A program made the position numbers and the translations under genes. The notes beneath the pieces are model-generated. The model saw nothing but the letters and a program-made list of their open reading frames with translations. It was not told the origin of the DNA and did no database searches. A DNA stretch of 62,704 nucleotides, counting the filler. It is 6 parts of 6 records of this genome, joined end to end, with 100 filler letters (N's around TTAATTAATTAA, not from the genome) between each part and the next. Parts side by side here need not be neighbours in the genome. Positions count along the whole stretch, not along the records: positions 20,706 to 30,440 come from SRR20825019_1221; 5 more parts are not named here. One strand, written 5' to 3'. Shown here piece after piece: positions 8,634 through 30,540 of this stretch (position 1 is the stretch's first letter; every line of letters starts with the position of its first letter).

Positions 8634-8678
8634 AAAGGACAGTGGAAGCATCGTCGCCGTGATCTTTTATGTGCGTGG

Positions 8679-9429: not shown

Positions 9430-9499
9430 ATTCGGCCGTCACGAGTTAGTGTTTATCTTGCCCGTTGTATTGCCCCTTAAAAATAAGTTCAACGTGGAC

Positions 9500-13040: not shown

Positions 13041-14504
13041 ATGAGGGTTGTGTATTCACTCCTTCTTTCCTGTTTGGTGGTCGTGGTTGTGTCGGAAGGC
13101 TTGCCAGGCAGCTCGTTTTCGGCTGGTTATGAGCAGGCTATCAATGACCTCCGTAGACTAGGGGTACACCGACTTAAGGAGTCGTCTCAAGTGATGCCTG
13201 ACTTCAAGGAGGAGACAGCAGACCTTCATGCTCACCCCGAAGATGGTGGAGGAAGCGACGCCGATGAACACGCAGATCTGGAGAAGGAAAAGGAGCTAGG
13301 TGCGTTAAAGGAGGAAGAGACGAAACTTGCTGCCCAAGAAGCAATGGTGAGAGCTGAGAAGGACGCAGTTGAAAGGGAGGTGAGCGAAAATGGCAACGGC
13401 AAGGTGGAGACGCCAGACCTTCGTGCTCAACCTGAAGGTGGCGGCGTCAACGTTGATGACCACACAGGTCGGGAGAAGGAGAAGGAACCTGCCGTAACGA
13501 ATGCGGTGGTAAAGGAGAAGGAGAAGAGAGTTGCTCCCGAAGAAGGAACCATGGGTTCAGTTGAAGGGAAGGGAAGAAGCGTGGGCGAAAAGGGCGAGGG
13601 CGCTACCGAGGATCTCACGCCTGCAGTTGTGCCCGAAGCTAAGAAGAAGCCTCTAGCCGACCGTGAGGCGGTGGTGGAGGATAAGGAAAAGAGAGTTGCT
13701 GGCGAAGAAGAAAGGTTGAAAGCAGAAGAGGCGTCACTTAAAAGGAGGGAAATGGCCGTGGATGTTCGGGAAGATCATGCTGGAGAGAAAGGGAAAACTA
13801 GCGGTGAGGAAGTGGCTCCAAAGGAAACAGGGGGTGCCACCGGGTTGAAAGACGTTGGGGAAGAGGTGAAGAGAACCGAAGAGGTCAAAGAAAAGATCGC
13901 AGCTGATGACGCCAGGGCTAAGGAGCTTACTAACGAGGTCGCCTTAGAAAAAACGGTTTTGGACGAAGTCGAGGACCGCGAAAGGGAATTGAAGGCTGAA
14001 GAGGATGTTAAAACAAAGGAAGTTGAACGCCTTAAGAAGGAGATTGCGGCTGCTAAGGCCAAGTCCATATGTGCAACCTTTAAGAGTTTGTATAATGAAA
14101 TGGAAGTAGCAAAGGAGAATATTGTCGGAAGGAAGGAGAGACAAACCAATTCATATCTATGTGGCGTGATGATGCAGCTGCAGCAAAGTATGAAGGCGAA
14201 ACCATCTGTCCATAAGAATTATTGTCAGAGTGTGTCGGAGACACTTACTCGCTTTAAACATACGGGTGAAATTCGCAGGCGCAGAAAGGAGCGCGCGACC
14301 AATGCCTATCTATGTGGTGTTCTAAATGAAATGTCAACACAGATGAACTCCGCAGGCAAGGTTACTAAGAAGCACGATAATCGTGAAGCTTACCGTACAA
14401 TGTGCAAGAGCGAGTATATTTGTGGACTTTTGTCTGGTTTGCAGGATCGGATGCTGGCAACCGTCTCTGGAAATGGCAATAATGGAGGAAGTGACGAGAA
14501 AGGA
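13041..14504 (+). CDS. Predicted secreted Glu/Lys-rich coiled-coil protein with Cys-containing repeats (3'-truncated)
   Basis: Signal-peptide-like MRVVYSLLLSCLVVVVVSEG, an E/K-rich region with internal duplications, then YLCGV/YICGL repeats. Open to the contig end. Confidence 0.75.
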
Positions 14505-14604
14505 NNNNNNNNNNNNNNNNNNNNNNNNNNNNNNNNNNNNNNNNNNNNTTAATTAATTAANNNNNNNNNNNNNNNNNNNNNNNNNNNNNNNNNNNNNNNN
14601 NNNN
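14505..14604. other. Artificial contig linker N44-TTAATTAATTAA-N44
   Basis: Identical 100-nt spacer occurs five times and has stops in all six frames. Composition and gene style change across it. Confidence 0.98.
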
Positions 14605-15722
14605 CTCAAAGCCTCGGCCAAAGCATCATCCTCGGCCAAACGATGCAGCGCGCCTACCCAAGCGTCCTCATCCTCCACCCGCGCGATCAATCCCGTGACT
14701 CCGTGTTCAATTGCTTCGGTCGTTGCCGCGGCCGGCGAGCTCACCACTAAGGTTCCAATCGACATCGCCTCGGGAATCACATTCGGCAATCCATCGCGAT
14801 CACCACTCGCGGCAATCACCCCGCTATGCACCAAGACATCCGACCAGGCCAATTCTTCCCAAACTTTTTCGTGCGATAAATGTCCGGTCAAGAGCACCTC
14901 ATTATTCAGTCCCAACTCCCGGCGCAATTCCTCCAGCTCACTGCGCAAAGGGCCATCGCCAATAATTTTCACAGTAAACTCCAGACCGGTTTTTTTGAGC
15001 GTCGCATACATCCGCAACTGATGACGCAGGCCCTTCTTCTCGACCAATCGGGCAATACAAATGATCCGCAATGGCGTGCGCGGCTTCCTCATTTTTTTCA
15101 TTTCCGGAAAAGAATCCAACCCACGTCGAATACAGAAAATACGCTCCGCATCCAGGCCGTGCTCGATCAGTGAATCGCGCCCCATCTCGGTGGAAGTGTG
15201 GATAAACAACGCGTGCTCCAACTTTTCGCGCAGCCACCAATCACCACCGTGTTCGTAGATATCGTAGGCATGCGCTCCACTGCTGAATCGGTGCCCATCC
15301 AGCCGACCTAAAATCCACGCCGCAGTCGCCGGGGCTCCTCCCCAGGCGGCATGGATATGAGTGGGACGATCTTCCCGCAATTGCCCCGCATAGAGACAGG
15401 CAAACCCGGCCCCGAGCATATTCTCCCAAAAATTCATCCAGGAAGGGGCTTTGCGCGTAACCAACCCCTTGAGCAGTTCACCAAACAACTTCGGCCAACG
15501 GATCGCGGTATACGGAATCATCCAGAGCAAGGTGAGCAGTTTCCATTTAGGAAACGATTTCACCTCCATGCCGCGGAATATCCCGCCGCCGCCCCACAGC
15601 GAATAGATCCGCATTTTCAATCCATACGCCTGCATCGCAATGATTTCACGCTGTAGAAACGTTTCCGTAGGTTTGGGAAACGTCGTAAAAAGGTAGGCAA
15701 TGACAGGCGACTCGGATTTCAA
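14605..15722 (-). CDS. Glycosyltransferase family 4 (WcaL-like), 3'-truncated
   Basis: FPKPTETFLQREI, HIHAAW, AHAYDIY, IARLVEKKG, IIGDGPLR and GDRDGLPNVIPEAMSIG (GT-B/GT4 motifs). Confidence 0.9.
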
Positions 15723-15803
15723 GCTCGCCCGAGCATGCGGATTACGCGCAGCCCCGCAACGCTGGAGAACGCAAATACCTCGCGCCTCACTACTTCTAAC
15801 TTT

Positions 15804-17567
15804 TTACGCCATGCGTTCTTTGTAGAACTTCTGACAGAGTTCGTAGATCGCCTGCGGTGAGCTCATCTTCAGGGCCTCTTCGGCCAACTTCCGTGCATCA
15901 CTCATTTTCATCGCCCGAATCAAATAGCGCACTTCCGGAATTTGCGGCGGCGTCATACTCAGGGCATCCACCCCAAGACCGAGAATCAATGGCACCAACA
16001 TCGGATCCCCTCCCATTTCACCGCAAATACTCACGGGAACCTTTTTCCGGTGCGCTTCTTTAACCACATGGCGTAAAGTGCGCAACACCGCCGGATGTGT
16101 AGGTTCATAAAGATGCGCGATCCGGTCATTCACCCGATCCACCGCGAGCAGATATTGGATCATATCATTGGTCCCCACGCTGAAAAATTCGCACTGGTCC
16201 GCCAGAATGTCCGCCGTCGCTGCGGCGCTCGGAATTTCGATCATCGTGCCGACTTCGAGGGCCCCGTCAAAAGGGGTCCCACGTTCACGGAGTTCCACTT
16301 TACACTCCTCCAAAACCGCATTGGCCTTCGCCAATTCATCTGCACCGCTAATCATGGGATACATCAGCTTGATTTTCCCGTGCACACTCGCCGCGAGAAC
16401 CGCACGGAGCTGGTCCTTGAAAATCTCCTGATGCTCGAGGCAAAACCGGATCGCCCGAAAACCCATGAACGGGTTATTCTCCTTCGGAAACAAATTCGGA
16501 TTTCCGGGGATCACTTTATCGCCGCCCAAATCGAGCGTCCGAATCACCACCGATTGAGGAGCCAAGGCCGACGCGACCGTCTTATACGCTTCAAATTGTT
16601 CGTCCTCAGTGGGAATATGCGCGTTGTTGAGGTAGAGATACTCGGTGCGAAACAGCCCGATCCCGTCCGCATTGTATTCATGGACCAACTTAACTTCGTC
16701 CACTTTTTCAATATTCGCCTGCAACGAGACGGACACGCCATCAAGAGTCACGGCCGGCTCACGATTTGCCTCAAATAAACGGTTTTCGAATGATGCCTTC
16801 TCTTTTTGGATTTTCCCGTAACGAAACAACGTCGATTCCGAAGGGTTAAGGATCACCACGCCATCATAGCCATCGATCAAAATCCATTGCCCGTTGGTCG
16901 CCCGGGAGCTCAAATCGTGCATGCCGACGATTGCCGGCACTTTCATTGATCGAGCCATGATGACTGCATGGCTCGTCTTGCTGCCGGAATCCGTGATGAC
17001 TGCCAACGCCGCCGTGCGATCCATACTGACGGTATCTGAAGGCGAAATATCGTTTGCCACGATGATCTGCTTATCAGCCAAACGGCTCAGACTATTACCG
17101 GACTGGCCGAGTAGATTCTGCAACACACGCTGTGCGACATCACGAATATCATCCGCTCGTTCACGCAAATATTCGTCTTCGATCTCAGCAAATGCCTTGA
17201 TGTAACGCTGGGAAACGCGGTCGAAACAGGTTTCCACGTTTTCACTCGTTGTCTCAAACTCACGCATCGTCTCGGAGAGCAACGCTTGATCCTCCAACAC
17301 CATCAGATGCGCATCGAAGATCCGGGCTTCATCCGGCCCGATATTGGCCGCAACCTCACTCTGGATTTTGCTGATTTGCTGTCGGGTTTGCACCAAGGCC
17401 TGATCAAACCGCGCCGATTCCTGCTCACGCTTGCTTTCTTCAACCTGATAATGCGGCACCTCGACTGAACTCTGCAAATAGACAAATACCTTTCCGTAAG
17501 CGATTCCCGGTGAAGCGGCAATCCCTTGCAAGGTAACTTCTTTAAGATTAGAGGTATCCGAAGGCAT
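15804..17567 (-). CDS. ptsI: Phosphoenolpyruvate-protein phosphotransferase (PTS enzyme I)
   Basis: GIAASPGIA, phospho-His motif TSHAVIMARS, GIGLFRTE, RTLDLGGDK, ENNPFMGFRAIR, FFSVGTNDMIQY and ICGEM. Confidence 0.97.
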   Translation of the reverse strand: MPSDTSNLKEVTLQGIAASPGIAYGKVFVYLQSSVEVPHYQVEESKREQESARFDQALVQTRQQISKIQSEVAANIGPDEARIFDAHLMVLEDQALLSETMREFETTSENVETCFDRVSQRYIKAFAEIEDEYLRERADDIRDVAQRVLQNLLGQSGNSLSRLADKQIIVANDISPSDTVSMDRTAALAVITDSGSKTSHAVIMARSMKVPAIVGMHDLSSRATNGQWILIDGYDGVVILNPSESTLFRYGKIQKEKASFENRLFEANREPAVTLDGVSVSLQANIEKVDEVKLVHEYNADGIGLFRTEYLYLNNAHIPTEDEQFEAYKTVASALAPQSVVIRTLDLGGDKVIPGNPNLFPKENNPFMGFRAIRFCLEHQEIFKDQLRAVLAASVHGKIKLMYPMISGADELAKANAVLEECKVELRERGTPFDGALEVGTMIEIPSAAATADILADQCEFFSVGTNDMIQYLLAVDRVNDRIAHLYEPTHPAVLRTLRHVVKEAHRKKVPVSICGEMGGDPMLVPLILGLGVDALSMTPPQIPEVRYLIRAMKMSDARKLAEEALKMSSPQAIYELCQKFYKERMA

Positions 17568-17644
17568 AATCAAAGCCGTTCACGTCCAGAGCAGCGGCCA
17601 TGCCAGATCATAACGTGCGTCTAAGCACATGTGGTCAATGCGAT

Positions 17645-18523
17645 TTACGCAAGCGCCGCCGTCGTCATAAACGCGCTCTTCCCCCACATTTCTCGAATCA
17701 CGCCCTTCACTTCTTCGATGTCCGTTCCTTTTTCCAACCATGTCAGTGAGGCACTGCCACTACCGCTCATCAGTGGTTTGAGCCCATATCTTGCCTGTAG
17801 AATGGCATAAAGAGCCGGCAGGGCCGGATATTTCTCAAAGACCACCGTTTCCATCGTATTATAGCAAAGTTTCTCCAAAGGAGCCGTGCCGTCACTTTTC
17901 CAACTTTCCCACCGAGCCTCCGCTTGATCCGCTGGCATATAGGTAGTCGGCCGTGCTGCCATTTGCCCGTAAGCCCAAGGGGTTGCCACGCCAAAAGGCG
18001 GTTTGAAGAGCAGGAGTCGGCGCCCGGAAATCCTTGGGCGCACCTGATCCTCGAGCAATTCCACTTGATCACCCACCCCACGCATCATCACCGGGGCATT
18101 TTCCAAAAAGAGCGCGCAATCCGCCCCCAGCCCGACGGCCACGTCGCGCATCCGGGACTCAGATAAGAGTTCGCCCGACAATACATTGAGCGCGCGCAAG
18201 GTCGCCACGGCATTACTACTGCCGCCACCCAGACCCGCCCCCACCGGAATGCGTTTCTCCAATCGCAGCTCCACCTGTCCCGACCATCCGGTCGCGGACC
18301 GAAACGCCTTCACCGCCTTGAGCACGAGATTGCTTTCATCGGTCGGCAAATTGGCATCATCGCAAATCAGACGCGTTTCGGCCGCCAGGGTCGCGTGCAG
18401 GGTGTCGCCCCAATCCAACGGAGCGACCAGCGAAACCAGATTATGAAATCCATCGGGACGACGATCGGTAATCGCCAAAAACAGGTTTACTTTGGCCGGA
18501 GAAAATAGCGTTACGGATGACAC
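17645..18523 (-). CDS. ispE: 4-diphosphocytidyl-2-C-methyl-D-erythritol kinase
   Basis: SPAKVNLFL..RRPDGFHNL, GHMP ATP loop KRIPVGAGLGGGSSNA, GADC and MSGSGS. Probable GTG start at 18523. Confidence 0.95.
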   Translation of the reverse strand: MSSVTLFSPAKVNLFLAITDRRPDGFHNLVSLVAPLDWGDTLHATLAAETRLICDDANLPTDESNLVLKAVKAFRSATGWSGQVELRLEKRIPVGAGLGGGSSNAVATLRALNVLSGELLSESRMRDVAVGLGADCALFLENAPVMMRGVGDQVELLEDQVRPRISGRRLLLFKPPFGVATPWAYGQMAARPTTYMPADQAEARWESWKSDGTAPLEKLCYNTMETVVFEKYPALPALYAILQARYGLKPLMSGSGSASLTWLEKGTDIEEVKGVIREMWGKSAFMTTAALA

Positions 18524-18581
18524 GGAGGAATAATTGCAAATTGGTCGTGACTGCACACGGCAGTTATCTTCTCATTACTAC

Positions 18582-19286
18582 GTGTCTGATCATCCTTCTT
18601 GCGACCTCATTCTTGCCCTTGATCTCCCCGACCGCGATGCCGTCACCCCGATGCTCCGCCAATTGCATGGTTCCTTGAGCTGGGTAAAAATCGGTCTGCA
18701 AATGTTTACCGCCTACGGACCCGACTACGTGAAGGAAATCGCAGACGAAGGGTTCAAGATATTCCTCGATCTGAAGCTCCACGATATCCCCAACACCGTG
18801 GCCAAAGCGGTCGAATCGCTCTCCAGCCTGCCAATCGATATGCTCACCATCCATACCGGCGGTGGATCCGAAATGATGAGCCGCGCGAAACAAGCTCAGG
18901 AAAGCACCAACCCGGATCTTCTCCTCCTCGGCGTCACCGTGCTCACTTCGATGGATGACATTGGTCTCAACGAAATCGGTGTCGATATTCCCTCCCCCGA
19001 TCAAGTTACGCGCCTCGGAAAACTCGCGGTCAGGGCCGGATTGAAAGGTTTGGTCTGCTCACCACTCGAAGTCGCCGAACTCCGCCGAGAACTGCCTGCC
19101 GATATCAAACTCGTGACACCGGGTATCCGTCCCGCCGGACAATCCGGGGGCGACGATCAAAAACGAGTGATGACACCTGCCGAAGCAGCCCAGGCCGGTT
19201 CCTCCTACATCGTGGTCGGACGCCCGATTCTCCAAGCCTCTGATCCCGCCGCCACGGCACGCGCGATCCTCGCCGAGCTTGCCTAA
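18582..19286 (+). CDS. pyrF: Orotidine-5'-phosphate decarboxylase
   Basis: LILALD, VKIG, active-site FLDLKLHDIPNT, VTPGIRP, DDQKRVMTP and VVGRPI. Probable GTG start at 18582. Confidence 0.96.
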   Translation: MSDHPSCDLILALDLPDRDAVTPMLRQLHGSLSWVKIGLQMFTAYGPDYVKEIADEGFKIFLDLKLHDIPNTVAKAVESLSSLPIDMLTIHTGGGSEMMSRAKQAQESTNPDLLLLGVTVLTSMDDIGLNEIGVDIPSPDQVTRLGKLAVRAGLKGLVCSPLEVAELRRELPADIKLVTPGIRPAGQSGGDDQKRVMTPAEAAQAGSSYIVVGRPILQASDPAATARAILAELA

Positions 19287-19338
19287 TTTCCCGCGCTTTG
19301 CCTTCAGGCATTCAATTTTCACCCTTCACGCTTCGCCC

Positions 19339-20019
19339 ATGAGCCGCACCGCCGCCATACTTCTCGCTGCAGGAAATGGCCGTCGTATGGATGGCTCCGT
19401 GGAAGACAAAGTGCTCACGCCTCTCGCCGGGCGCCCGGTTTTTGCGTATTCCGCCGCCGCGTTTATCGAAAGCGGCGTCGCGGATTATTACGTGATCGTT
19501 TACCGTGACCAACGTCAGATGACGGAACTCTCCGCCTACGCACCCACGCCTTCGGTTTTGGTTAAAGGCGGACGCGAACGGCAGGACTCCGTGATGAACG
19601 CGCTCGCGGTTCTGCCCGATGATATTGAACACGTTTTCATTCACGATTGCGCGCGCCCGCTTATTCAGCCCGTTCAGCTCGTCGGCCTCCTCAAAGTCGT
19701 TCGCAAGGAAGGTGCCGTGGTGCTCGCCCATCGGGTGACCGATACCATCAAGCAACACCAAGGCGAAGGCCGCCTCCGCACGCTTCAACGTGACAAACTC
19801 TGGGCGATGGAAACGCCCCAGGTTTTTGAGCGGAAGCTGATCGTGAAAGCTTACCAGCGGGTCGCGGAAAAAAAACGAACGATCACCGACGATGCCGCCG
19901 CCGTGGAACCCATGAAGCATCCTATCGCGCTCCTCGAAAACACGCAGCCCAACCCCAAGCTCACCACCCCCGCCGATATCGCTTGGTTGGAGTTTCTGCT
20001 CCAGTCCGCCGGCGATTAA
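19339..20019 (+). CDS. ispD: 2-C-methyl-D-erythritol 4-phosphate cytidylyltransferase
   Basis: ILLAAGNGRRM, GGRERQDSV, FIHDCARP, DTIK, ETPQVF, TDDA and NPKLTTPAD. Directly upstream of ispF. Confidence 0.95.
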   Translation: MSRTAAILLAAGNGRRMDGSVEDKVLTPLAGRPVFAYSAAAFIESGVADYYVIVYRDQRQMTELSAYAPTPSVLVKGGRERQDSVMNALAVLPDDIEHVFIHDCARPLIQPVQLVGLLKVVRKEGAVVLAHRVTDTIKQHQGEGRLRTLQRDKLWAMETPQVFERKLIVKAYQRVAEKKRTITDDAAAVEPMKHPIALLENTQPNPKLTTPADIAWLEFLLQSAGD

Positions 20020-20031
20020 CTTCCAGAAAAC

Positions 20032-20520
20032 ATGACTAATTTGCGCATCGGAAACGGCTACGACATCCATCGCCTCGCTCCCGGACGTCCCCTCGTCCTC
20101 GGTGGCGTGAAGTTCGACACCGATTACGGCCTGGACGGTCATTCCGATGCCGATGTGCTGACACACGCGCTTTGCGATGCGTTGCTCGGCGCGGCCGGCC
20201 TCCCCGACATCGGCCATTTCTTCCCCAACACCGATCCGGCTTTCAAAAACATCGATTCACAACTGCTTCTTAAAAACGTGATTCGCGAATTACAGCAACG
20301 GAGCTATCAGGTTGTAAATGTGGACATCGCCGTGATCGCCGAAAAACCACGTCTCATTGCCCGTCTCGGTGAAATGAAAGCCGCCCTCGCACAGACCATG
20401 GATGTTTCGACGGATGTCATCGGGATCAAAGCCACTACGCATGAAGGCGTGGGCGACCTCGGCCGTGGACTCGGAATCGCCGCCTATGCCGTGGCTTTGA
20501 TTGAAAAAACGAAATCCTGA
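20032..20520 (+). CDS. ispF: 2-C-methyl-D-erythritol 2,4-cyclodiphosphate synthase
   Basis: RIGNGYDIHRL, GHSDADVLTHALCDALLGA, DIGHFFP and IKATTHEG. Confidence 0.96.
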   Translation: MTNLRIGNGYDIHRLAPGRPLVLGGVKFDTDYGLDGHSDADVLTHALCDALLGAAGLPDIGHFFPNTDPAFKNIDSQLLLKNVIRELQQRSYQVVNVDIAVIAEKPRLIARLGEMKAALAQTMDVSTDVIGIKATTHEGVGDLGRGLGIAAYAVALIEKTKS

Positions 20521-20534
20521 TCGCATTTAAAACA

Positions 20535-20605
20535 ATGCGTTGTCTTTCCTTTATCATCGGCCTCCTCGCCGCGCTGAGTCTTACCGGATGTTGGTCCCGG
20601 GAAAC
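20535..20605 (+). CDS. Lipoprotein N-terminus (partial)
   Basis: MRCLSFIIGLLAALSLTGCWSRE: type II signal peptide with lipobox LTG-C, cut by the contig end. Confidence 0.65.
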
Positions 20606-20705
20606 NNNNNNNNNNNNNNNNNNNNNNNNNNNNNNNNNNNNNNNNNNNNTTAATTAATTAANNNNNNNNNNNNNNNNNNNNNNNNNNNNNNNNNNNNNNN
20701 NNNNN
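20606..20705. other. Artificial contig linker
   Basis: N44-TTAATTAATTAA-N44. Confidence 0.98.
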
Positions 20706-23146
20706 TTCGCCGCCAAGGTCACCTCCAGAGTCGATAACGGGCTTTGCACATGCATGGTTACATCACTGACATGTGAATATGCCTTGACAAGGTTGCCTCT
20801 AGAGGCCTCAATTGACGCGAATACGTAGCTCTGACGGGACCGCATCAGAAAGGACACTTGGCTTTTCGCTTCGAGAGTAGCATCAAGTCGCGATAACTTG
20901 CTTTGCGCCAAGTGGAAAACATCGGAAGTTGCATGCATTGTCATGTCAACGGTGGATTCAGGGCTATCTAGATGCAAAAGCACATCGCTTTGTTGACTAG
21001 AGATTCGCAGCATAGCCCTGCGACAGCCTTCCAAAGTCACAAACGCATTATTTTGTCTTGATAGGACGTTGACTATTGTGTGACTCCTCGACTCCATTGA
21101 TGTAATCAATTCAGAATGGTCATCTTGAATATGAAACTTCACATCGCTTCTGAAGCTTGATAAGCGCAACCGCCCAGTTCGACTTGACTCAAGAGACAAT
21201 ATCGAGGTTGATTGCCGCGAACTTGTTATAGTTTGAACTTCTGATCTCGCTTCAATAGTTCTTATTCCAATAGACATTTTGCTCTGTACAAACTGCGAAA
21301 CATCGGACATGGCATTCATAGTCGAAGTCATGGTTGATCTGTCAGCCTGAAGTTGAATATAGATGTCGCTTACATGAGACTGAAATCGGACCTGGGTTGC
21401 CCGGCTAGTCTCCATCGATACAATATTATTCGCTTGACGCGACAGCATCCTCATCACAGCATTACTAAATGATTCTTGCTCCACTTGCACCTCACCAGCA
21501 AATGTGGGATACGATCGAACGTTAGCAATCATATAAATTATTGAGTCTGGGCGGCCTTGCGAAGTCACATGGTCCTTCATGGAAACATAGCCAAATACCG
21601 TGGTGGTGTAATTCTCCCTGCTCATCCACACGGTGCCTGAAACAACGGCGATCTGTACAAGTGAAGTATAATTGGATATATGAGTATCTCCATTAAGGCC
21701 AGCATCGATTGTGACACGACCACCAGTGCCAGAAGGGTATGCCTGAACAAGCGGGGTCCCTCCAGGACCAGCCAAGATCTCAATGTCTCCGCCTGGACCA
21801 CCCGGAGCATTCGGATTGAGGCTACCTCCGTCTCGCCCAATGAAGTGGAGACCGTCATCTCCAATATCGCTGTAATCATGGCCAGTACCCCTTTGCGCAG
21901 TAGTCAAATGGTGCATCGTTCGATAATGCTGCTCGTGATTATCCCTGACAGCTTTGGCACCATATTCCATGCGTTCGTGCATGACCTCGCTAGAACAGGG
22001 TGTCAGCGCCAAACTTCGCCTGCAAGATCCACTCTCACCTCTTTCTATATCCATCTCGATCTATTTGCGCCTGCATGACATGCATTTCAGCCTCAGCAAT
22101 GCTGAACCCACCCTGCTGCACTGAGCGTGTCAAGCTGCCAGTTCCCATGAGTTTCACAGTCTGGGAAACTGGATCGAAAGATATCCCAGATGTTCCTCCA
22201 AAGCGACCCTCACGATAAGCATAGAATCTACCGTTCGTACTGATCGTATCTGAACTTGTCCCTTCCTTGACCAAAACAGCGGGATTGTCAACACGAACAC
22301 TTCCAAACACTACTCTAGGTCCTTGTGACGTGTCAGCGTCCACGCTCCCACCAGTCAATGCCAGCGATCCTGATGCAAGCACTTATCAATCAAATGTCGA
22401 GTGATTAGCCTAACTGCCTCCTTACCTGACGAAAACTTCACATCATTATAGACATACATGTTATCGGCTTTGTAGAGGCCACCAGATGTCGGAATGGAAA
22501 CTTCAACATTGGTAACGCCCATCCATCCGAACGATATAGATATCATGTAAAGCAGTAGAGGAGCAACCACAAGCACGTACACAGCCGCAACGAGGCAACC
22601 AAAAAGACAGCATATCTTCTGGTTTCTGTACAAGTTATTTTGTGAAGCATGGGCGGCCGCAACAGCCTTTCTTGTCGCCCTATCCACCGCCCTGTTGATA
22701 AACGCTTCTGTACTGTTAGAAAGCTCCGGCAGTTCTGGCTTCGGTGGTAGGAAAGTCTTGCCCACTGCTTGAGTCTCACCCTTTGGTTTGGGGGGAGGTT
22801 CGTCCGGCTGTTTAGAAGCCACTTTCGGAAGCGGTGGAGGGGCTGTGGATATTGGCTTCGACGTCTTGGTGGTTTCACTAACGGGCGGGGGTCTGAACTT
22901 GTGCACCACCCGCATCTTCGGCACAATACTTGCCTTCACCACTGTATCTGGACCGGGTTTACGAACGCGCTGAGGAACTGGCCGCGGCATTTCTGCAGGC
23001 ATGTTTGTGTTGTCCATTCTCATTGGCGGAGGCGGTGGCGAAAGGCGAGAAGGAGCAGCTCCACCAGCCCCCCCAAACTTGGCCACAGCCATTGCCGAGG
23101 CAGGATCTGCCATCTTCATTTTGGGTAGCGGTGGAGGAGAAGGCAT
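20706..23146 (-). CDS. Type II membrane protein: Pro-rich N-terminus, one TM helix, large beta-repeat (beta-solenoid-like) ectodomain; 3 exons, 3'-truncated
   Basis: ATG at 23146 (MPSPPPLPK). TM segment ICCLFGCLVAAVYVLVVAPLLLYMISISFGW. Introns 22370-22425 (56 nt) and 21990-22038 (49 nt) join three ORFs in frame. Two ungapped 127-aa repeats start at 21445 and 21064. Confidence 0.85.
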
Positions 23147-23961
23147 CGCTTCTTGCTTTTGAAACAATGCCTTTTCCTTTCAAAATCTGTAACGCTTGAC
23201 GCGTGACCTTGCGTTGCCCAGAGGGTAAGTATATTTCTGTTGTACTCTTTGAGTTTGGTTCGCGGGGTTCTTTTTATGGATTCAGCAGAGTCCCCTATGT
23301 CACTTGACAACACACCAGCTTCGGTAGTCGGAGGCACGGTTGGTCCTGAGGAGATCCGCCGGTGCGGCCTCCCAGTTGCGACTGGCGACAACCCAACGCC
23401 GGGCAGGCAGTTTCCCCAGCCACCATGCATGTGGTGATCAATCGCAAACTGGCAGCGCCCACACGGAAAGGCAGTACGACTGACAGCCCACCCCAGCCTG
23501 GCCGGCTGGCAGCACGGGGCGGCTTAGTCATAACCTTCGGCTAATAGAATTCTTTCGTTATAATCAATGTAGAGGATAGGCGATATGGATTTACATATCC
23601 GATTTGAGACTAAATATGGGAGTGCAATTGACAGAGATCGGATGGATCACAGAGTCGTGGAATCCGGGTGGCGCTGAGAGATGTGGAAGCGCCTTTGAGG
23701 GTCCTCGGCCGCGCCCCGCACACTGCAGTTCTATGCATTCATTCTTGTCTTTGCCTACTCTATTTCCGGTTGCGCATGGGTGAAAGAGTATGAGGCGGTG
23801 ACATCCGCAACAACTCTCAGTGACACAACAGCAATCCCTTCTTGTATTTGGCTCTCCTTGCCAAGACTTTCGAAGTTCAGGCACAGAATATACCAAACAT
23901 GGCGATAGGAAAGTAGTAAGACATTCGCACGACAGCAATCTTTCAGGCAATTTATACGTCG

Positions 23962-24859
23962 TCAAGCGCCCACTAACGACGGAAAGAATTCTTGGACACA
24001 CTCTAACTCGCCACTCTTGACAGAACCTTCGCCAAAACTGACCGGACAAGGGGCGTGCTCCATCTTGAAAACCTCACCCTGAAGACCGAGGACATTCTCA
24101 CCAGCACTTTCATCAAGCATAGACCCTCTCGACTTCCGTAGTTGCTCACTAGAAAATGGAAAACAGTCAACACAAGGAGCCCCTTCTTAGAACTCATATA
24201 CTTACAGCTCCTTTTCAATGGCACTCTTAACCTTGTCTTTTCTTGCGGCAGTAATGAAATCCATCTTGTTACAGAAAATTAATACCGGGATAACCGGGAA
24301 ATCGTTTCGTGTGAAGAGATCATAAAGGAAGTCCGCAATATTGCTAACGTCTAAGTTGATTGTCGTGGAATCAACAACGAAAATTATCCCTCTTGCAGCA
24401 CTGCAGAGATGGCCAGTAAGCAAAAGCAAAAGCAAACCATTGCGTTGTCCATACCTTAGCTTCTCCCCAACAAGATACCTCAAGCGCTTGTGTCCAGGAA
24501 TATCTACAAGCTTCAGCTTCGGCATACTGGGCGCAACAAGCACGTCGGCCTCATTTTCCTTCATCGACGTGAAAGTCTGTATGTACTTGCCATCACGCAA
24601 CTGTTCAAATATCAAAAAAACGACACACTAGAAGGGAAGACCCTTGTACCTGAAAGAAGAGAGCAGTTTTCCCGCTACCCACAGTCCCGAGAACAAGAAC
24701 AGAGTTTCCTTTTTTTTCAGCCTTGCTTTTAGAGGAGCCAGCCATAGTCACCACGCCAACAATAACAATCGCCAAAATCGTTACGATAATCATTAAGGGA
24801 TTCACTGCAACTCCTGTGAGCCCATAAAGGGCGTCACTTAATGGCTGGAGAGCTTCCAT
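23962..24859 (-). CDS. SRPRB: Signal recognition particle receptor beta subunit, multi-exon
   Basis: N-terminal TM, VLVLGTVGSGKTALFFQL, QTFTSMKEN, LVDIPGHKRLR (SR-beta G3 DxPGH), GIIFVVDS and LIFCNKMD. Confidence 0.93.
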
Positions 24860-24959
24860 ATCGCGAGTTGGGCATAGTTTCATGAATCTTCACGTATTTG
24901 TAAGAGTATCGTGGGTAAGAACTTCAAAACTATCCGGTTTGCTCTGTCTTCGTACCTCG

Positions 24960-26260
24960 ACCAAAGAGCCCGGCTTCTGTCCCGTCTGCACGAGTCTGGG
25001 TCCGGAGACGTGGCGGGTCGATTAAAATTCCGTGACCCGGCACATCCAACCACCGGTCCGCCGGTGGCCGGTTTGACCAGCCTGCAGGACTGGGCGGGGT
25101 GGCCGGCACACGGGTCAGTTTTGGGCCGGAGCAGGCGAGGGTCAGTCGGCCGCTGCAACGGTCGGGTCCGGTGGTGTGACGCGCCGCGCCCGGCCGGCCC
25201 CCCCGGGAGCTGAGCCGGCCGCGCCGGCCGCGGCCCGCCGCCGGGGCCCGCAGGGGCCGGGCCGGCCATCCGAGCCGCCAGGCGCGGCGGCGGCCGGGCC
25301 GCGCCGGACCGGCCCGGGCCGGACTCCCTTGAGTTGGGCAGTGGTCCGGTTTGAGGCGTCGAAGACTGCCACTGAGAGCCTTCCAATTCATTAGTCAGTT
25401 CCGATCGACGCATTGTGTGATTGCCCGTGCCGGGGGCCGGTTCCTTGACGGAGAGCGCCTCCGCCTGACCGGACCAGTGCGGTCTAATGTAGTACGCCAC
25501 GGACTGATGGCGGGCCCACGATGGCGAGCGGCGGCCGCCCGGTGTACACACCGGCCCGCCCGCCCGGGCGCCCGCCGGCCGGTCCGGGGTCGGCCACGAC
25601 CGTGGGGCCGCGGCGCGGCGACCCGGACGCCCCCCCGCGCCGCCCGGGCCCGCGGGCGCGGGCGCGGCCGGCGTCAGTCACCGTGATGTCTGAATTGCCG
25701 GGCCGCCACCGACCGGACGGCCCCCCGCCGGCAGCCTCGCCCCCCGCCGCAGGGCCGGTCCGACCGGGTCGGGCCGGGCGCGCTCGGCGGGTGCCGGCGG
25801 CTTGTCATCCATCGAGCAGAGAGCCGACTCTGACCGGACCGGCCTGGGGGGCCGGGCGGGCCGCCCGGCGCAGCCCGGCCCGCCCGCCCCCCCGGCCCGG
25901 CCGGCCCCCCCCCGGTAGTCACGGATTGCGGGGGCCCGGCCCGTTCTGTGGAGTGCTGTCAGCCGGCCGGAGTCGGGCCCGGGCCCGGCTTGGCGCCCGG
26001 GCGCTGGAGGAGACAGGACCGGACGGGGGGCTGGCCGCAGGGGCGGCTCACGGCTTGGTCGTGCCAGCGGGCTCCGTGCGGGCGCCGCACCGGGCTGGGC
26101 CTCCGGCGACAGACTGTCCGTCCCGCTTGTCACGGCCCGCCCACCGGCACTGGTGGCCCTCTGCCCTGCCTCACCCAATTGCCTCACCCCGCGCAGGCTG
26201 ACCCGCGGGATACTTCATGACGAGCCTGGCAGATGGCCGGCTTGGCCGTCCCGAGTGCTC
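24960..26260. promoter_or_regulatory. GC-rich intergenic island between divergent genes
   Basis: About 1.3 kb of extremely GC/CCGG-rich sequence between SRPRB (-) and DENR (+). Only low-complexity R/P/G/A shadow ORFs. Confidence 0.6.
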
Positions 26261-26398
26261 CCTCCAACTCATGACACAGTTCGATAGGGTCCTCTGTTCT
26301 GTATCTCAAAGACTGAGGCTCGCTTGTTTTTGCATGCTATGACGTCTTCAAGAAATATAATTCTCTTGCCAGTAAGGACAATTAATTTAAGAATCCAT

Positions 26399-27412
26399 AT
26401 GGGAAAGAAAAAGGGAAAGAAAGGAAAGAAAGTAGAGTCTGACTCGGAATCGGAACACGACTCAACAGCAAGCGAGAGTGGTGACGAAGGAGGATCAAAG
26501 CTAAAACCTCTCGTTGTTGTTTATTGTGCTGGTAGGCGGGAGGAAGTTGAAGACTTTCATATACTAACTGTTTAACGAAGTCTGTGGTCTCCCCCCGGAG
26601 TTTTGCAGTTTCGGTTCGGCTTTTGAGAAATGCAAGCCTTGGCTGAAAGAGAATGCTCTTCATCTTTACCCCGAGCTTGGAGAAGGAGACGGTGGTGAGT
26701 ATAGGATCGGCACTGTTGAAAGGTTGTTGGATAGCTGAGTTCTGTTAAGCTGTTGAAGAAGCTTCTTCTTCTGTGAAGAAGATGGACTTAAACAAATTGG
26801 ATAAACTGGAAGGTGTGGCCACCGGAAAGAATAAGTGTGAGTATTAAGTGAGGAATTTATTCTATCTATACTTACCTGGAGATAGCCATCGAAGAGATTC
26901 AGAGCGCGAAGAAGGACGAATCGTTGAAAACCTTGCCAGGCGGGAAAATTAAGAAAAAGGTACATTGCACTTGTATGTGCCGAGATCAATGTTTAAATTA
27001 CCGATCTCCTTCGTACAGGCGGACCCAACAGTTGTGATTGCTAGGCAACAGCGCAACAAGCGAAAGTTTGTTACTTCAATTTCTGGTCTAGGGCACTTTG
27101 GTACGCATTTACTCTGAGCTTGGGGAGTAGTTCCATTGTTGACTCCCTTGTGCAGGTGTTAAGCTTGGTGATGCATCAAAAATATTTTCGAAGAAGTTCA
27201 GTTGCGGTGCTTCTGCCACGGATGGAACTATTGACATTCAGGGCGATGTTTTGGGTGAGGTGTTGGAATACATTGAGAAGAAGTCAGGCTGGGAGGTATG
27301 GTTTTCAGTGTCTCTGTCGTCCGCGAAGTGTACTGATATCTTCTAGATTCCGAGAGATGTTATCTGGGTAAGCGAGGATGGAAAGAACAAAGTGAAACTC
27401 ACGTCACGATAG
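26399..27412 (+). CDS. DENR: Density-regulated protein / Tma22 (SUI1-domain reinitiation and recycling factor), multi-exon
   Basis: Zn site VVYCA|VCGLPPEFCSFG..KCKPWL. SUI1 domain RNKRKFVTSISGL..SKKFSCGASA..IDIQGDV. Confidence 0.92.
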
Positions 27413-27576
27413 TGTATGGGCGTGACTGCTAAACTATGTCATTGAAATACAAACACACAAATATGATAGGAGCTTCATCACGAACTAGTTGTGTTTTCAA
27501 GAAATTTTACAGTTTTTTTTGGGAGGGTTTTCTTTTTTTTGTGGGGGTTATCAAAGGATACAATCGCCAAAGCTTT

Positions 27577-27774
27577 CTACTCTTCGACGTAGTTGGGATC
27601 CTTCTTGTCAATTGCACCACCAGGCATAGGCGCCTCACTTCCAGCACTGCCCCAGTTGCCCTTGCCTTCACCTCCCTTCTTCTCAGTTGCCTTCACGTTT
27701 GAAGAACCGTGCTTGTCGTAGCCACCATGGTTGGAGCCGTTGACGTTGGACATAACTTTCTTATCGTTCGTCAT
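27577..27774 (-). CDS. 65-aa microprotein with PDCD4/Stm1/SERBP1-like ribosome-binding motif
   Basis: Intronless ORF with KKGGEGKGNWG followed by IDKKDPNY. Codon usage is biased (AAG/AAC/GAC) and a TATA box lies upstream. Confidence 0.8.
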   Translation of the reverse strand: MTNDKKVMSNVNGSNHGGYDKHGSSNVKATEKKGGEGKGNWGSAGSEAPMPGGAIDKKDPNYVEE

Positions 27775-27840
27775 TATTGGAAGTTTGTAGTAGATAGCTC
27801 AAAAGAACTGTTTAAGTATTGTTTGTTGGTTTATGAGATA

Positions 27841-27848
27841 CTTTTATA
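27841..27848 (-). promoter_or_regulatory. TATA box of the microprotein gene
   Basis: Minus strand reads TATAAAAG about 67 nt upstream of the ATG at 27774. Confidence 0.55.
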
Positions 27849-27879
27849 AGCAGTGTCGCATTATAAGAAGTAGGCAAGT

Positions 27880-28700
27880 GGAGCTACGCGCTGGATTGAT
27901 GAGGATGGGGGGCTGACAGATTTCTCACCGGCACTGTAGCGCTCGCTGCCCCCGACCGCTGACAGACTGAGTGGCCGAATGGTGCTTGACCAGCACGGTG
28001 GTCGCCCGCACTGAGAGTCGCCGTCACCTTGAGGTCCGACTGGACATCAGTCGGCGTGGCGGATGCCGTTGGCGACGTCAAAGAGGCTGCGTCTCCGCAT
28101 CGCTAGTCCCTCATCAGTCCGACATCCGTGTGCCAACGCATGCGACGTCCCCGTCGCGTGAATCAGGCAACCTTGCCAAGTGCTGTCCGCTCAATCAATC
28201 AGTGAGTTCACTCATGAACAGGTTCCTAATGAGAGCACCTCATTCTTCCGTTGTATCGAGATAGTTCACTCATCGTTTGTGTTCTAAGAATAGAGGTAGG
28301 GTCAGGCCAACTTGGGCGGTTTGAGCCCGGGACAGTGACCGGCGGGTCCCAGGAAAGGACGTCATCCCCGGCGCCCGGCCACGCGGGCGTCCCGGCGCCA
28401 CCCGGCTGCTGGAGTCCCGAGCAGCCGGCGCGCGGCAGCACTGTCACTGACTGACAGTTGAAGCCGCGCGGCCGCACCCCGGCAGAGCCTTTGGTGACAG
28501 CTGACGTCACACCGGCTGTCGTCGCGCCTCACCAGGCGCCGCATAGGACTGGAGGATCCGCCGAATGCGCCCCACCTGAGAGCAAGGGCAGGCGCCGTCC
28601 AAGAATCCCGCCATGTGGGCTACAGCCCACACGATCGCACCCTTGCAGCCTGTGTACAAGCCTTGCAGGCCGCTTATCGGACTGGAACTCTGGGGCAGTT
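27880..28700. promoter_or_regulatory. GC-rich intergenic island between divergent genes
   Basis: GC-rich tract between starts at 27774(-) and 28786(+). Includes the inverted repeat ACTGTCA-CTGAC-TGACAGT at ~28440-28458. Confidence 0.5.
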
Positions 28701-28785
28701 GCGGTTTCAACAGCACTTATCGCGGCCAAACAATTGTAGCAGCTTGAAATATGAGTAGAACAGAAATGAAAACTGCAGGGACTCA

Positions 28786-30278
28786 ATGGATCACTCCGAG
28801 CACGACCACAGTTCGCATACGACCCCTGATGATAGCGCCGCGTCGACGGATGCTTCAGGTTCTCACGATGAAGGCCACGGTGGCCACGGTGGCCACGACC
28901 ATTCTGCGCACGGCGCTCAAATCAGAGAAACACATTTTGATACGGTCGGGAGCAGCGCCATGTTGCACGGTGTTGCCATGACTGCTTTGACCTGGATAGT
29001 CTTCCCCTACATTGTGTATCTGGCAAAGAACAACAAGTTCCCATTTGTTCGGGGGTAGGTTTCATGTGTCTATATTTCACACAATTATTTAAGTTGTCGC
29101 CACCTTTTTTCAGAGTGCTCTCTGCAATTAGTTTGGTCGTGATTGGTGTGTCCTCTGCCCACATGTTTATATATCAAGTTGCTCGGGGCAGGGCACCATC
29201 CCTGCACGGTACTGGTGGCTGGTTTACTCTGCTTGCCCTGGCTACTTTCTTTGCGTCTGAGCTCATGGCTTCTATGGAGTCTATCAAGAATATGGTACCA
29301 AGGGAATCTGCTCGTGGTTCTGTGAAAGCGGTGTGGAAGGGGATGGGATTGTTCATCTTCTTTGTCCTCTGCCCTCTAGTTTGGTTCTATGGAATCTATG
29401 AAGCTTTGGGTATGTTGAAGGAGCACTTCAACCAAGCGGGAGGGCATACTATGCCGGGAGGTGCCATGCTTATACTGTCAGGAAACATGATGTTTGGGCC
29501 AGTGAATGAGAGGAAAAAGCTCCTCTTTGAGGGAATGTAGGTTTATTATGATGTCATTGGTCCCATTTCTAACTTTTGTTTAGTGCACTGACGATATTTG
29601 GGTTCATGTATTTGTCGTTGGATCTTATGACTGGTTACTTTGCTGGTGGTTACGTGGGCCTCGTTGGAATACAACACATGTCCACTTCTCTATGCTGGGC
29701 TTTGGGTGGTTTGCTCACTCTGGTGTTGCTTCGCACTGGAAACGAGAAGTACAACAGCGCTGGCCTTGCTGCAGTAACTTATATTCACATACAAGTGATG
29801 CTTAATCACCCCAACCACAACCACGGCCAGCTTTCTATGGATCTTCACTCGTAAGCAGTTCATAGCAGATGGTTATAGCATGTTTTGCTGACTTAAATGG
29901 CACAGGATTCACACAGGTTTGATGGCTTGTACTCTCTTGCTCCGCATACTTGGCAATTGGTATCTGGCCGGTGTGTCGCTCGCTATGGCAGCTGGTATAT
30001 TTATTTCCAGCCAAGCCGGCTTTGCCATGCCCTTGGCAACAATGGGATGGCACTCCTCTGTGTATATGATGGTCACATTCGCGTCAACCCTTTTGGGAAT
30101 AACATATTTCACGCTACTGTTTGCAAACACTGCGGAAGAAGAGGAAGCTGGTAGAGGCACGCGCCCCCGGAGTTCATCCGGCCACGAGAAGCAGGGCTTC
30201 CTCGCAGTTTCTAGCCATGATCATGACATCGATGACTTGGATGTGGATCTGGAAGAGTTTGTTGGCACCCATAAGTAG
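28786..30278 (+). CDS. Polytopic membrane protein, YTP1/TMEM45(DUF716)-like, with His-rich N-terminus; multi-exon
   Basis: MDHSEHDHSSH..HGGHGGHDHSAH leader and many TM helices. Conserved-looking His motifs LHGVAM, SLHG, GGHTMPGG, IQHMS, MLNHP and IFISSQ. Confidence 0.65.
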
Positions 30279-30371
30279 TGCTATTGTATTAAATGAATGA
30301 AAAAGAAACGTGTAATAATGTAAAGAAACGATCACGAGCTTTCTCGAGGTTAGGTATTTATTGCCGGGCTT

Positions 30372-30440
30372 CAATCACGACGGCGGCGCTTGCGTCGAGA
30401 ATCACCCGATGACGACGATGAAGACGACGACGACGACGAC
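30372..30440 (-). CDS. 3' end of a truncated gene (poly-Ser then RRKRRRRD-stop)
   Basis: Minus-strand frame reads SSSSSSSSSGDSRRKRRRRD-TGA. The contig breaks in a (GAC)n repeat. Confidence 0.4.
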
Positions 30441-30540
30441 NNNNNNNNNNNNNNNNNNNNNNNNNNNNNNNNNNNNNNNNNNNNTTAATTAATTAANNNN
30501 NNNNNNNNNNNNNNNNNNNNNNNNNNNNNNNNNNNNNNNN
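30441..30540. other. Artificial contig linker
   Basis: N44-TTAATTAATTAA-N44. Confidence 0.98.

What the first reader, a model, noticed from the sequence alone, without database searches (positions are those of the whole stretch)
21695..23146. Intron-containing eukaryotic membrane protein carrying phage tail-fibre-like motifs
Seen: Pro-rich N-terminal region (PPPLPK twice, PPPPP), Cys-rich juxtamembrane segment (KICCLFGC) and one TM. Then EGRFGGTSGISFDPVSQTVKL (~22150-22212) and GGPGGDIEILAGPGG..GTGGRVTIDAG (21802-21695) before the beta-repeats. From recall rather than a search, G-x-FGG-x(3)-[LF]-x-FD and GG-x-[IV]-x-I-x-AG turns are typical of phage fibre/spike proteins. Two spliceosomal introns and flanking SRPRB/DENR show it is a nuclear gene. 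Inference: a domesticated viral-type fibre displayed on the cell surface or an extrusome and linked to the cytoskeleton through poly-Pro, for prey capture, adhesion or host penetration. This is my strongest candidate for an undescribed system.
Basis: partly seen in the sequence, partly recalled or inferred. Interest (0 to 1): 0.75.

Follow-up and report, generated by a model that had tools for sequence, protein, structure and literature searches.

The report
Orphan membrane repeat protein, not phage fibre
This is a real-looking but truncated nuclear gene of a poorly sampled protist; it encodes a membrane-anchored protein with a proline-rich tail and a novel serine-rich repeat, has no detectable relatives anywhere, and shows no link to phage tail fibres.

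Summary
They lie in a three-exon gene on the minus strand (23146..20706). It sits on a eukaryotic contig next to a cDNA-verified spliced SRPRB gene and a DENR gene. The window is six contigs joined by linkers, and the contig end cuts the gene at 20706, so the C-terminus is missing.

The 778 or more residues comprise:
- a tail with 21% Pro (1-175);
- a Cys cluster and a 33-residue hydrophobic anchor (178-210);
- a Gly-rich, beta-leaning region;
- a His-rich segment;
- at least 24 Ser-rich units of about 10.6 residues, arranged as two 127-residue modules that are 39% identical.

The two introns (56 and 49 bp, GT..AG) rest on sequence analysis only.

No search found a relative: Pfam, PHROGs, NCBIfam, PDB sequences, 1.84 billion representative proteins, tblastn against 50,697 phage records, the ESM Atlas, and three contig collections. 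AlphaFold models were unusable (pLDDT 41.5 and 33.8), so fold similarity remains untested.

The phage-fibre reading rests on recalled short motifs and has no support. The best reading is a lineage-restricted, N-in/C-out surface or membrane repeat protein, probably an adhesion or coat protein. Interest is low.

The parts
22426..23146 (-). Exon 1 (residues 1-240 plus the first base of codon 241). The ATG at 23146 is the first ATG after an in-frame stop.
   Evidence: in-frame codon score 0.14 against -0.34 and -0.23 out of frame
22622..23146 (-). Pro-rich N-terminal tail, residues 1-175 (20.6% Pro; PPPLPK twice, PPPPP once); inferred to be cytoplasmic
   Evidence: composition; internal PPPLPK match at offset 99
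22595..22618 (-). Juxtamembrane KICCLFGC cluster (Cys 179, 180, 184); candidate S-acylation sites (inference)
22517..22615 (-). 33-residue hydrophobic anchor, residues 178-210, with a central Pro
22370..22425 (-). Proposed intron 1: 56 bp, GTAAG..CAG, phase 1 (from sequence only; an alternative acceptor at 22382 is possible)
22039..22369 (-). Exon 2 (residues 241-351, the first and last shared with neighbouring exons), Gly-rich and beta-leaning
22149..22211 (-). EGRFGGTSGISFDPVSQTVKL segment (residues 294-314)
21990..22038 (-). Proposed intron 2: 49 bp, GTGAG..TAG, phase 2 (from sequence only)
20706..21989 (-). Exon 3, cut by the contig end with no stop codon (residues 351-778)
21698..21802 (-). 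Gly-rich turn region GGPGGDIEILAGPGG...GTGGRVTIDAG (residues 414-448), with self-similarity at offsets 10 and 23
20708..21469 (-). Ser-rich repeat region, residues 525-778: 24 units of about 10.6 residues forming two 127-residue modules (21089-21469 and 20708-21088)
20606..20705 (.). Artificial N / all-frame-stop linker between contigs; not biological
23886..24869 (-). Upstream neighbour SRPRB: extent of the mRNA as covered by one cDNA-type contig, with introns 24149-24205, 24401-24454 and 24601-24649

Best explanation
**What it is.** This is a lineage-restricted ('orphan') nuclear gene of a poorly sampled protist. It encodes a single-pass membrane protein.

**Shown directly.**
- Three long open frames lie in series on one strand and carry the codon bias of other eukaryote-like ORFs in the window.
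- The N-terminal 175 residues are Pro-rich and have no signal peptide.
- There is one hydrophobic anchor, preceded by a Cys cluster.
- The C-terminal part of more than 570 residues holds Gly-rich segments, a His-rich segment, and at least 24 Ser-rich units of about 10.6 residues. These units form two 127-residue modules.

**Inferred.**
- Topology is N-in/C-out (type II). The long N-terminus has no signal peptide, and the R and K residues sit on the N-side of the anchor.
- The repeats are short amphipathic beta-strands separated by Ser-rich turns. They would build an elongated beta-solenoid, or a string of beta-sandwich-like modules, that projects from the membrane.
- The tail's PPLP and poly-Pro motifs recruit SH3, WW or profilin-type partners, and the Cys cluster is acylated.

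**Most likely role.** A cell-surface adhesion or coat protein that couples an extracellular rod to the cortical cytoplasm. It arose within the lineage by internal duplication. There is no sign that it was captured from a virus.

**Confidence.** The figure of 0.5 is for the whole statement. I put about 0.85 on 'a real orphan membrane-protein gene' and about 0.35 on the adhesion or coat role.
For: **The gene is real.**
- Open frames of 468, 115 and 274 codons lie in series.
- The in-frame codon score is 0.136-0.144 per codon for all three exons, against -0.23 to -0.50 out of frame. The six reference ORFs from other eukaryote-like contigs score 0.11-0.24.
- The proposed introns are 56 and 49 bp with GT..AG ends. 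They match the 57, 54 and 49 bp GT..AG introns that a cDNA-type contig removes from SRPRB on the same contig.

**Membrane anchor.**
- It is the only stretch with a 19-residue Kyte-Doolittle mean above 1.6.
- The N-side flank holds R and K. The C-side flank holds E, K and D.

**Repeats.**
- The 10.6-residue period has power 152.2. The maxima of 200 shuffles had a mean of 51.7 and a 95th percentile of 73.2.
- Ser fills 17 of 24 units at column 2 and 13 of 24 at column 10. Column 8 is hydrophobic in 88% of units.
- The two 127-residue modules share 47 of 120 identical residues with no gaps, E 3e-23.
- There is no DNA-level tandem repeat, so the duplication is old.
- The beta-type hydrophobic moment (160-180 degrees) lies 2.65-3.06 SD above 500 shuffles. 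The alpha-type moment (98-100 degrees) lies at -0.26 to +0.09 SD.

**Orphan status.**
- 0 hits at E <= 0.001 among 1,835,955,588 proteins.
- None of 564 candidates for exon 2 and none of 108 for the exon-1 frame scored E <= 1.
- Pfam, NCBIfam and PDB gave nothing meaningful.
- The conserved neighbour SRPRB finds only 32-38% identical proteins, so the organism has no close relative in the databases.
Against: - The single-sequence AlphaFold model drew the repeat region as long helices, not strands, though at pLDDT of only about 50-57. Chou-Fasman averages are equal for alpha and beta (1.03 each).
- The 33-residue anchor with a central Pro could be a re-entrant hairpin. The C-terminal part has only one Cys (673) and two N-x-S/T sites. 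That is unusual for an ectodomain and also fits a cytoplasmic location.
- Exact splice junctions are not fixed: 40 and 27 frame-preserving GT..AG pairs exist.
- The C-terminus is missing, so the architecture is incomplete.
- The codon-score test is weak. Bacterial ORFs in the window also score 0.035-0.11.
- The function rests entirely on sequence features.
Confidence: 0.5

Rival explanations
1. One reading: the ectodomain is a domesticated phage, viral or bacterial fibre or spike. It would be a trimeric beta-helix displayed on the surface or on an extrusome.
For: Gly-rich turn segments followed by short beta-type repeats are loosely fibre-like. A precedent exists for a prokaryote-derived ectodomain on a type II protein with a Pro-rich tail: the teneurins (PMC3278476, abstract and passages read). 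Fold similarity could not be tested.
Against: PHROGs gave only E 0.052-0.19, all to families of unknown function. Pfam and NCBIfam gave nothing. tblastn against 50,697 phage records gave no match for exon 2 and E 6 and E 9 for exon 3. The viral contig scan had 1 pattern match and 0 confirmed. phmmer found 0 hits among 1.84 billion proteins. Codon usage, GC3 and intron sizes match the surrounding genome. The cited motifs were derived from this sequence and recalled, not taken from any family signature.
Confidence: 0.06
2. The large C-terminal part faces the cytoplasm. Either the 33-residue hydrophobic stretch with its central Pro is a re-entrant hairpin, or the protein sits in an organelle membrane. 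The protein would then be a cortical or endomembrane scaffold and not a surface protein.
For: The anchor is 33 residues long with a central Pro. There is only one Cys and there are two N-x-S/T sites in more than 570 residues after the anchor.
Against: The charge distribution around the anchor favours N-in/C-out. Thirty-three residues is short for a true two-helix hairpin. Ser/Thr-rich beta repeats are common in extracellular stalks (general knowledge, not tested here).
Confidence: 0.2
3. The ~11-residue repeats are amphipathic alpha-helices of the perilipin, apolipoprotein or LEA type (recalled). They would lie on a membrane or lipid surface, or form a hendecad coiled coil.
For: The period of 10.6 residues is close to three helical turns. 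Hydrophobic columns 4, 5 and 8, and partly column 1, resemble hendecad core positions. AlphaFold drew helices.
Against: The alpha-type hydrophobic moment is no higher than in shuffles (z -0.26 to 0.09), while the beta-type moment is (z 2.65-3.06). Column 6 is also hydrophobic, and Pro and Gly fall at unit borders. The model's pLDDT is only about 50.
Confidence: 0.12
4. This is not a functional gene. The frames would be a decaying pseudogene or a mis-joined model.
For: No relatives were found. The junctions are not uniquely fixed. The 3' end is missing.
Against: A stop-free frame of 468 codons in DNA of about 47% GC is very unlikely by chance: (61/64)^468 is about 2e-10 (own arithmetic). All three exons carry in-frame codon bias. 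The repeat pattern is conserved at protein level with no DNA repeat.
Confidence: 0.05

Closest known systems
Teneurins (type II membrane proteins with a prokaryote-derived YD-repeat ectodomain; PMC3278476, abstract and passages read)
   Same: The topology is inferred to be type II. The intracellular tail is Pro-rich with SH3-type motifs.
   Different: No EGF, NHL, YD or RHS Pfam match. The C-terminal part has almost no Cys. No sequence relationship was found to anything.
Phage tail fibres and tailspikes
   Same: Gly-rich turns are followed by short beta-type repeats, and an elongated shape is plausible.
   Different: No significant PHROGs, Pfam or tblastn match. Trimerisation and fold are untested.
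RTX beta-roll nonapeptide GGxGxDxUx (consensus recalled, not from a tool)
   Same: One segment (GGPGGDIEI) and two looser neighbours at 10-12 residue spacing resemble Gly-rich beta-roll turns.
   Different: No Pfam match to any family at E <= 0.1, so no RTX match either. At most three degenerate copies are present, and the hydrophobic position is shifted.
Beta-solenoid repeat proteins with coils of about 21 residues, such as curli CsgA and HET-s (recalled)
   Same: A double unit of about 21 residues carries conserved Ser and Gln/Glu positions and amphipathic beta-type strands.
   Different: No sequence match to these or any other proteins. The fold is not established. The units are organised in 127-residue modules.
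11-mer amphipathic-helix repeat proteins such as perilipins, apolipoproteins and LEA proteins (recalled)
   Same: The repeat period is about 11 residues.
   Different: There is no excess alpha-type hydrophobic moment. The composition is rich in Ser, Val, Thr and Arg, where those proteins are rich in Lys, Glu and Ala.

Membership tests
Phage tail fibre / tailspike families (PHROGs, Pfam) | Significant profile match to a tail-fibre, spike or receptor-binding family | tested here: not met
   PHROGs: 4 matches at E 0.052-0.19, all to families of unknown function. Pfam: 0 matches for exons 1 and 2, and E 0.35 and 0.46 to unrelated families for exon 3. tblastn against phages: none for exon 2, E 6 and E 9 for exon 3.
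Phage tail fibre / tailspike families (PHROGs, Pfam) | Trimeric beta-helix or fibre fold | tested here: inconclusive
   AlphaFold2 single-sequence models had mean pLDDT 41.5 (exon 3) and 33.8 (exon 2). That is too low for a fold search, so none was run.
Teneurin | Type II topology with a Pro-rich intracellular domain | tested here: inconclusive
   The Pro-rich N-terminus, the single anchor and the charge bias fit. Topology is inferred, not measured.
Teneurin | EGF repeats, NHL repeats, and a YD/RHS shell in the ectodomain | tested here: not met
   No such Pfam family at E <= 10.
RTX / haemolysin-type calcium-binding beta-roll | Tandem GGxGxDxUx nonapeptides detectable by the Pfam model | tested here: not met
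   No Pfam match. Only one close copy is seen in the sequence.
Spliceosomal-intron nuclear gene | GT..AG introns that restore one reading frame, with sizes typical of the genome | tested here: met
   The 56 and 49 bp GT..AG introns restore one frame of 778 codons. The neighbour's transcript-verified introns are 57, 54 and 49 bp.
Spliceosomal-intron nuclear gene | Transcript showing the junctions of this gene | not testable with these tools
   No full-length cDNA of this gene was available. See Tried and rejected.

The most novel reading that the evidence does not exclude
The C-terminal part is a new kind of extracellular rod. A previously undescribed Ser-rich beta repeat of about 10.6 residues, in 127-residue modules, would sit behind Gly-rich beta-roll-like turns. 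It might derive from a bacterial or viral fibre that has diverged beyond sequence recognition. A type II stalk would anchor it, and PPLP/poly-Pro motifs would wire it to actin regulators. A bacterivorous protist would use it for adhesion or prey capture, in functional parallel to the proposed origin of the teneurins.
Probability: 0.1. Interest if true: 0.6.

Novelty: new variant of a known kind. Interest (0 to 1): 0.2.

Why it matters
If the gene is expressed as modelled, it adds one more lineage-specific repeat membrane protein to a protist with no close sequenced relatives. Such orphans are common, so this alone would not surprise a specialist. The repeat itself (about 10.6 residues, Ser at two fixed positions, 127-residue modules) matches no described family and could be a new beta-solenoid-like fold. 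That would be of some interest to structural biologists. The attractive claim, a phage fibre domesticated by a eukaryote, has no support, so the finding should not be carried forward as a candidate for an undescribed system.

Tried and rejected
- **Own genome:** none is held for this window, so paralogues could only be sought inside the window. tblastn of the script-assembled protein found nothing beyond the gene itself; the best other hit was E 0.23.
- **Sequencing runs:** no RNA holder is listed. One run (X1, type not on record) holds 0.16 of the sampled words. When laid, its single matching contig covers only SRPRB (23886-24869). Nothing from it lies on 20706-23885, so it says nothing about expression or splicing of this gene.
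- **Contig collections:**
  - metagenome contigs: 52 pattern matches, 0 confirmed;
  - genome contigs: 26 pattern matches, 0 confirmed;
  - viral contigs: 1 pattern match, 0 confirmed.
- **ESM Atlas:** best scores 0.82 (whole exon 3) and 0.78 (residues 1-175 of exon 3, named clusters only). Both are below the 0.9 lead level.
- **PDB sequence search:** best matches were E 2 (an antibody Fv) and E 0.7 (F1845 fimbrial protein, 13.5 bits). Neither is meaningful.
- **Other libraries:** Rfam and tRNA scans of the window found nothing.
- **Earlier findings of this scan:** nothing by place or by sequence.
- **Fold search:** not run, because both models were far below usable confidence.
- **Fourier test for alpha or beta periodicity over the whole repeat region:** gave no significant peak at 3.5-3.75 or 2.0-2.4 residues. 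The local hydrophobic-moment test was used in its place.
- **Organism:** I did not try to identify the organism or the source of run X1.
Full report
**1. What the window is.** The 62,704-base window is not one molecule. Five linkers, each made of N-runs around an all-frame stop motif, split it into six contigs: 1-14504, 14605-20605, 20706-30440, 30541-38396, 38497-57212 and 57313-62704. The finding lies on the third contig (9,735 bp, 52.7% GC). The contig before it carries uninterrupted ORFs that look bacterial, resembling pyrF, ispD and ispF by eye. Several other contigs carry eukaryote-type domains: ankyrin, SPRY and cytochrome b5. No whole genome is held for the window.

**2. The observation.**
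- PPPLPK is at residues 4-9 and 103-108, and PPPPP at 37-41.
- KICCLFGC is at 177-184.
- It leads into a 33-residue hydrophobic stretch (178-210). This is the only segment with a 19-residue Kyte-Doolittle mean above 1.6.
- The EGRFGG...VKL segment is at residues 294-314 (window 22211..22149).
- GGPGGDIEILAGPGG...GTGGRVTIDAG is at residues 414-448 (21802..21698).

The neighbours are also as stated.
- SRPRB matches Pfam PF09439 at E 7.6e-21.
- DENR matches DENR_N at E 2e-13, and SUI1 at E 6.6e-06 and 3e-08 on separate small exons.
- Both genes are on the same contig as the finding.

**3. Gene model.** Three open frames of 274, 115 and 468 codons follow one another on the minus strand. They can be joined as follows:
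- exon 1: 23146..22426;
- intron 1: 22425..22370 (56 bp, GTAAG...CAG, phase 1);
- exon 2: 22369..22039;
- intron 2: 22038..21990 (49 bp, GTGAG...TAG, phase 2);
- exon 3: 21989..20706.

This gives one frame of 778 codons with no stop. The frame runs into the contig-end linker at 20706, so the C-terminus is missing.

Support for the introns is indirect.
- A contig of run X1 joins across three GT..AG introns of 57, 54 and 49 bp in the adjacent SRPRB gene. So short spliceosomal introns of this size are used at this locus.
- That contig ends in a 23-nt non-genomic tail. I recall this as a template-switch-oligo remnant, which fits cDNA.
- Frame preservation alone does not fix the junctions. Counting the chosen pairs, 40 GT..AG pairs for intron 1 and 27 for intron 2 keep the frame open. 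One example is an acceptor at 22382, which would give a 44-bp intron.

All three exons show in-frame codon bias: 0.136-0.144 bits per codon in frame, against -0.23 to -0.50 out of frame. Six reference ORFs from the other eukaryote-like contigs score 0.11-0.24. GC3 is 0.42-0.50, like those ORFs. This test is weak, because bacterial ORFs in the window also score 0.035-0.11. A chance stop-free frame of 468 codons has a probability of about 2e-10 per frame start (own arithmetic).

**4. Anatomy of the protein.**
- Residues 1-175 are 20.6% Pro, 12% Ala and 9% Lys, with no signal peptide.
- The anchor is flanked by R and K on the N-side and by E, K and D on the C-side. By the positive-inside rule (established knowledge), this favours N-in/C-out.
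- Residues 208-524 are 14% Gly and lean towards beta. They contain a segment with 7 His in 52 residues (337-388), read. Intron 2 falls within this segment.
- Residues 525-778 are 17% Ser.

The repeat region has the following properties.
- **Periodicity:** it shows a strong hydrophobicity period of 10.6 residues, with power 152.2. The maxima of 200 shuffles had a mean of 51.7 and a 95th percentile of 73.2.
- **Column pattern:** when the region is cut into 24 units, Ser fills 17 of 24 at column 2 and 13 of 24 at column 10. Glu or Gln fills 13 of 24 at column 9. Large hydrophobic residues fill 58%, 58%, 62% and 88% of columns 4, 5, 6 and 8.
- **Modules:** the units are grouped in two 127-residue modules that share 47 of 120 identical residues with no gap, E 3e-23. 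Sub-repeats occur at offsets 53 and 74.
- **Age:** Tandem Repeats Finder sees nothing at DNA level, so the duplication is old and the pattern is kept at protein level.

**5. Alpha or beta?**
- The single-sequence AlphaFold model drew the repeat region as long helices, but at pLDDT of about 50-57 and 41.5 overall.
- Chou-Fasman averages are equal.
- A local hydrophobic-moment test separates the two. At 160-180 degrees (beta) the region exceeds 500 shuffles by 2.65-3.06 SD. At 98-100 degrees (alpha, or 3-11 helix) it does not, with z from -0.26 to 0.09.
- Pro and Gly fall at unit borders (listing).

I therefore favour short amphipathic beta-strands joined by Ser-rich turns, roughly 60:40 over helices. 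They would form either a beta-solenoid with coils of about 21 residues or tandem 12-strand modules.

**6. Search for relatives.**
- Pfam gave no match for exons 1 and 2. For exon 3 it gave only E 0.35 and 0.46, to unrelated families and far below their cut-offs.
- PHROGs gave four matches at E 0.052-0.19, all to families of unknown function.
- NCBIfam gave none for any of the 3 pieces.
- PDB sequences gave best E 2 and 0.7.
- phmmer of exon 3 against 1,835,955,588 representative proteins gave 0 hits at E <= 0.001.
- The word-seeded search of exon 2 against longer proteins produced 564 candidates, none at E <= 1.
- The same search with residues 140-274 of the exon-1 frame produced 108 candidates, none at E <= 1.
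- The ESM Atlas gave best scores of 0.82 and 0.78.
- tblastn against 50,697 phage records gave nothing for exon 2 at E <= 10, and two hits at E 6 and E 9 for exon 3.
- Scans of the three contig collections confirmed 0 of 52, 0 of 26 and 0 of 1 pattern matches.
- There is no paralogue in the window.

As a control, the conserved neighbour SRPRB finds only three proteins, at 32-38% identity: two fungi and a spider. The organism therefore has no close relative in these databases, and a fast-evolving repeat protein would be expected to look like an orphan.

**7. The phage-fibre idea.** The two 'fibre motifs' were written from this sequence and matched to a recollection. No profile, sequence or phage-genome search supports them. 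The structural criterion could not be tested. Both models were unusable (pLDDT 41.5 and 33.8), and I ran no fold search on them. Codon usage and intron sizes look native.

The nearest documented precedent for the concept is the teneurins. These are type II proteins with Pro-rich SH3-binding tails, and their ectodomain resembles prokaryotic YD-repeat proteins. Tucker and colleagues proposed that the gene was acquired by a choanoflagellate, perhaps to bind prey (PMC3278476; abstract and passages read). This protein has none of the teneurin domains.

**8. Most likely mechanism.**
- **Shown:** a membrane-anchored protein with a Pro-rich N-terminal part and a long repeat region.
- **Inferred:** type II topology; a projecting beta-rich rod; docking of SH3, WW or profilin-type partners on PPLP and poly-Pro motifs; acylation of the Cys cluster. 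Together these suggest a surface adhesion or coat protein coupled to the cortex.
- **Main rival:** a cytoplasm-facing C-terminal part. The arguments for it are the 33-residue anchor with a central Pro, and only one Cys and two N-x-S/T sites after the anchor.

I put about 0.85 on 'a real orphan membrane-protein gene', about 0.35 on the adhesion or coat role, and about 0.06 on a viral or bacterial fibre origin.

**9. Verdict.** This is an ordinary kind of gene, a lineage-specific repeat membrane protein, with an undescribed repeat. Interest is low unless a future alignment yields a fold.

Noticed in passing
window 14505-14604, 20606-20705, 30441-30540, 38397-38496, 57213-57312: The window is a chain of six contigs joined by artificial linkers (N-run, 12-base all-frame stop motif, N-run). 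Features must not be read across these points.
   Followed up: yes
window 25001-26200; also 2201-2500, 5701-6100, 9701-10300, 12601-12900, 28301-28600, 50301-51400: Sharp GC-rich islands occur in otherwise ~47% GC eukaryote-like contigs. They reach at least 68% GC in 200-bp windows and up to 85% in 300-bp windows, and they are not repeats of each other. The 25001-26200 island lies between divergent SRPRB (cDNA 5' end at 24869) and DENR, so it may be a CpG-island-like bidirectional promoter.
   Followed up: partly
window 14605-20605: This contig carries uninterrupted ORFs that look bacterial (pyrF, ispD and ispF-like by eye; 55% GC). The assembly therefore seems to mix eukaryotic and bacterial DNA. 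The last contig (57313-62704) is 69% GC and may also be foreign.
   Followed up: no
window 30592-36909 (+): A single 2,105-codon ORF has its only Pfam match in a C-terminal cytochrome b5 domain (E 8.1e-18). The other ~2,000 residues match nothing.
   Followed up: no
window 23886-24869 (-): A cDNA-type contig of run X1 defines the SRPRB mRNA. It removes three introns of 57, 54 and 49 bp and shows two single-base differences from the window, at 24309 and 24790.
   Followed up: yes
window 27577-27798 (-): A small ORF matches the HABP4/PAI-RBP1 mRNA-binding family (E 2.7e-05). It is probably an exon of a further nuclear gene downstream of DENR.
   Followed up: no
window 21887-22088 (-): A His-rich segment (7 His in residues 337-388) spans proposed intron 2. 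AlphaFold drew its exon-3 part (residues 353-381) as a helix, and residues 352-371 are the most confident part of that model (pLDDT 60-64). It could be a metal-binding site.
   Followed up: no
window 12741-14504, 45687-47210, 47226-48569, 53565-54410: Several other long ORFs on the eukaryote-like contigs also have no Pfam match at E <= 1e-5. Orphan proteins seem common in this organism.
   Followed up: no
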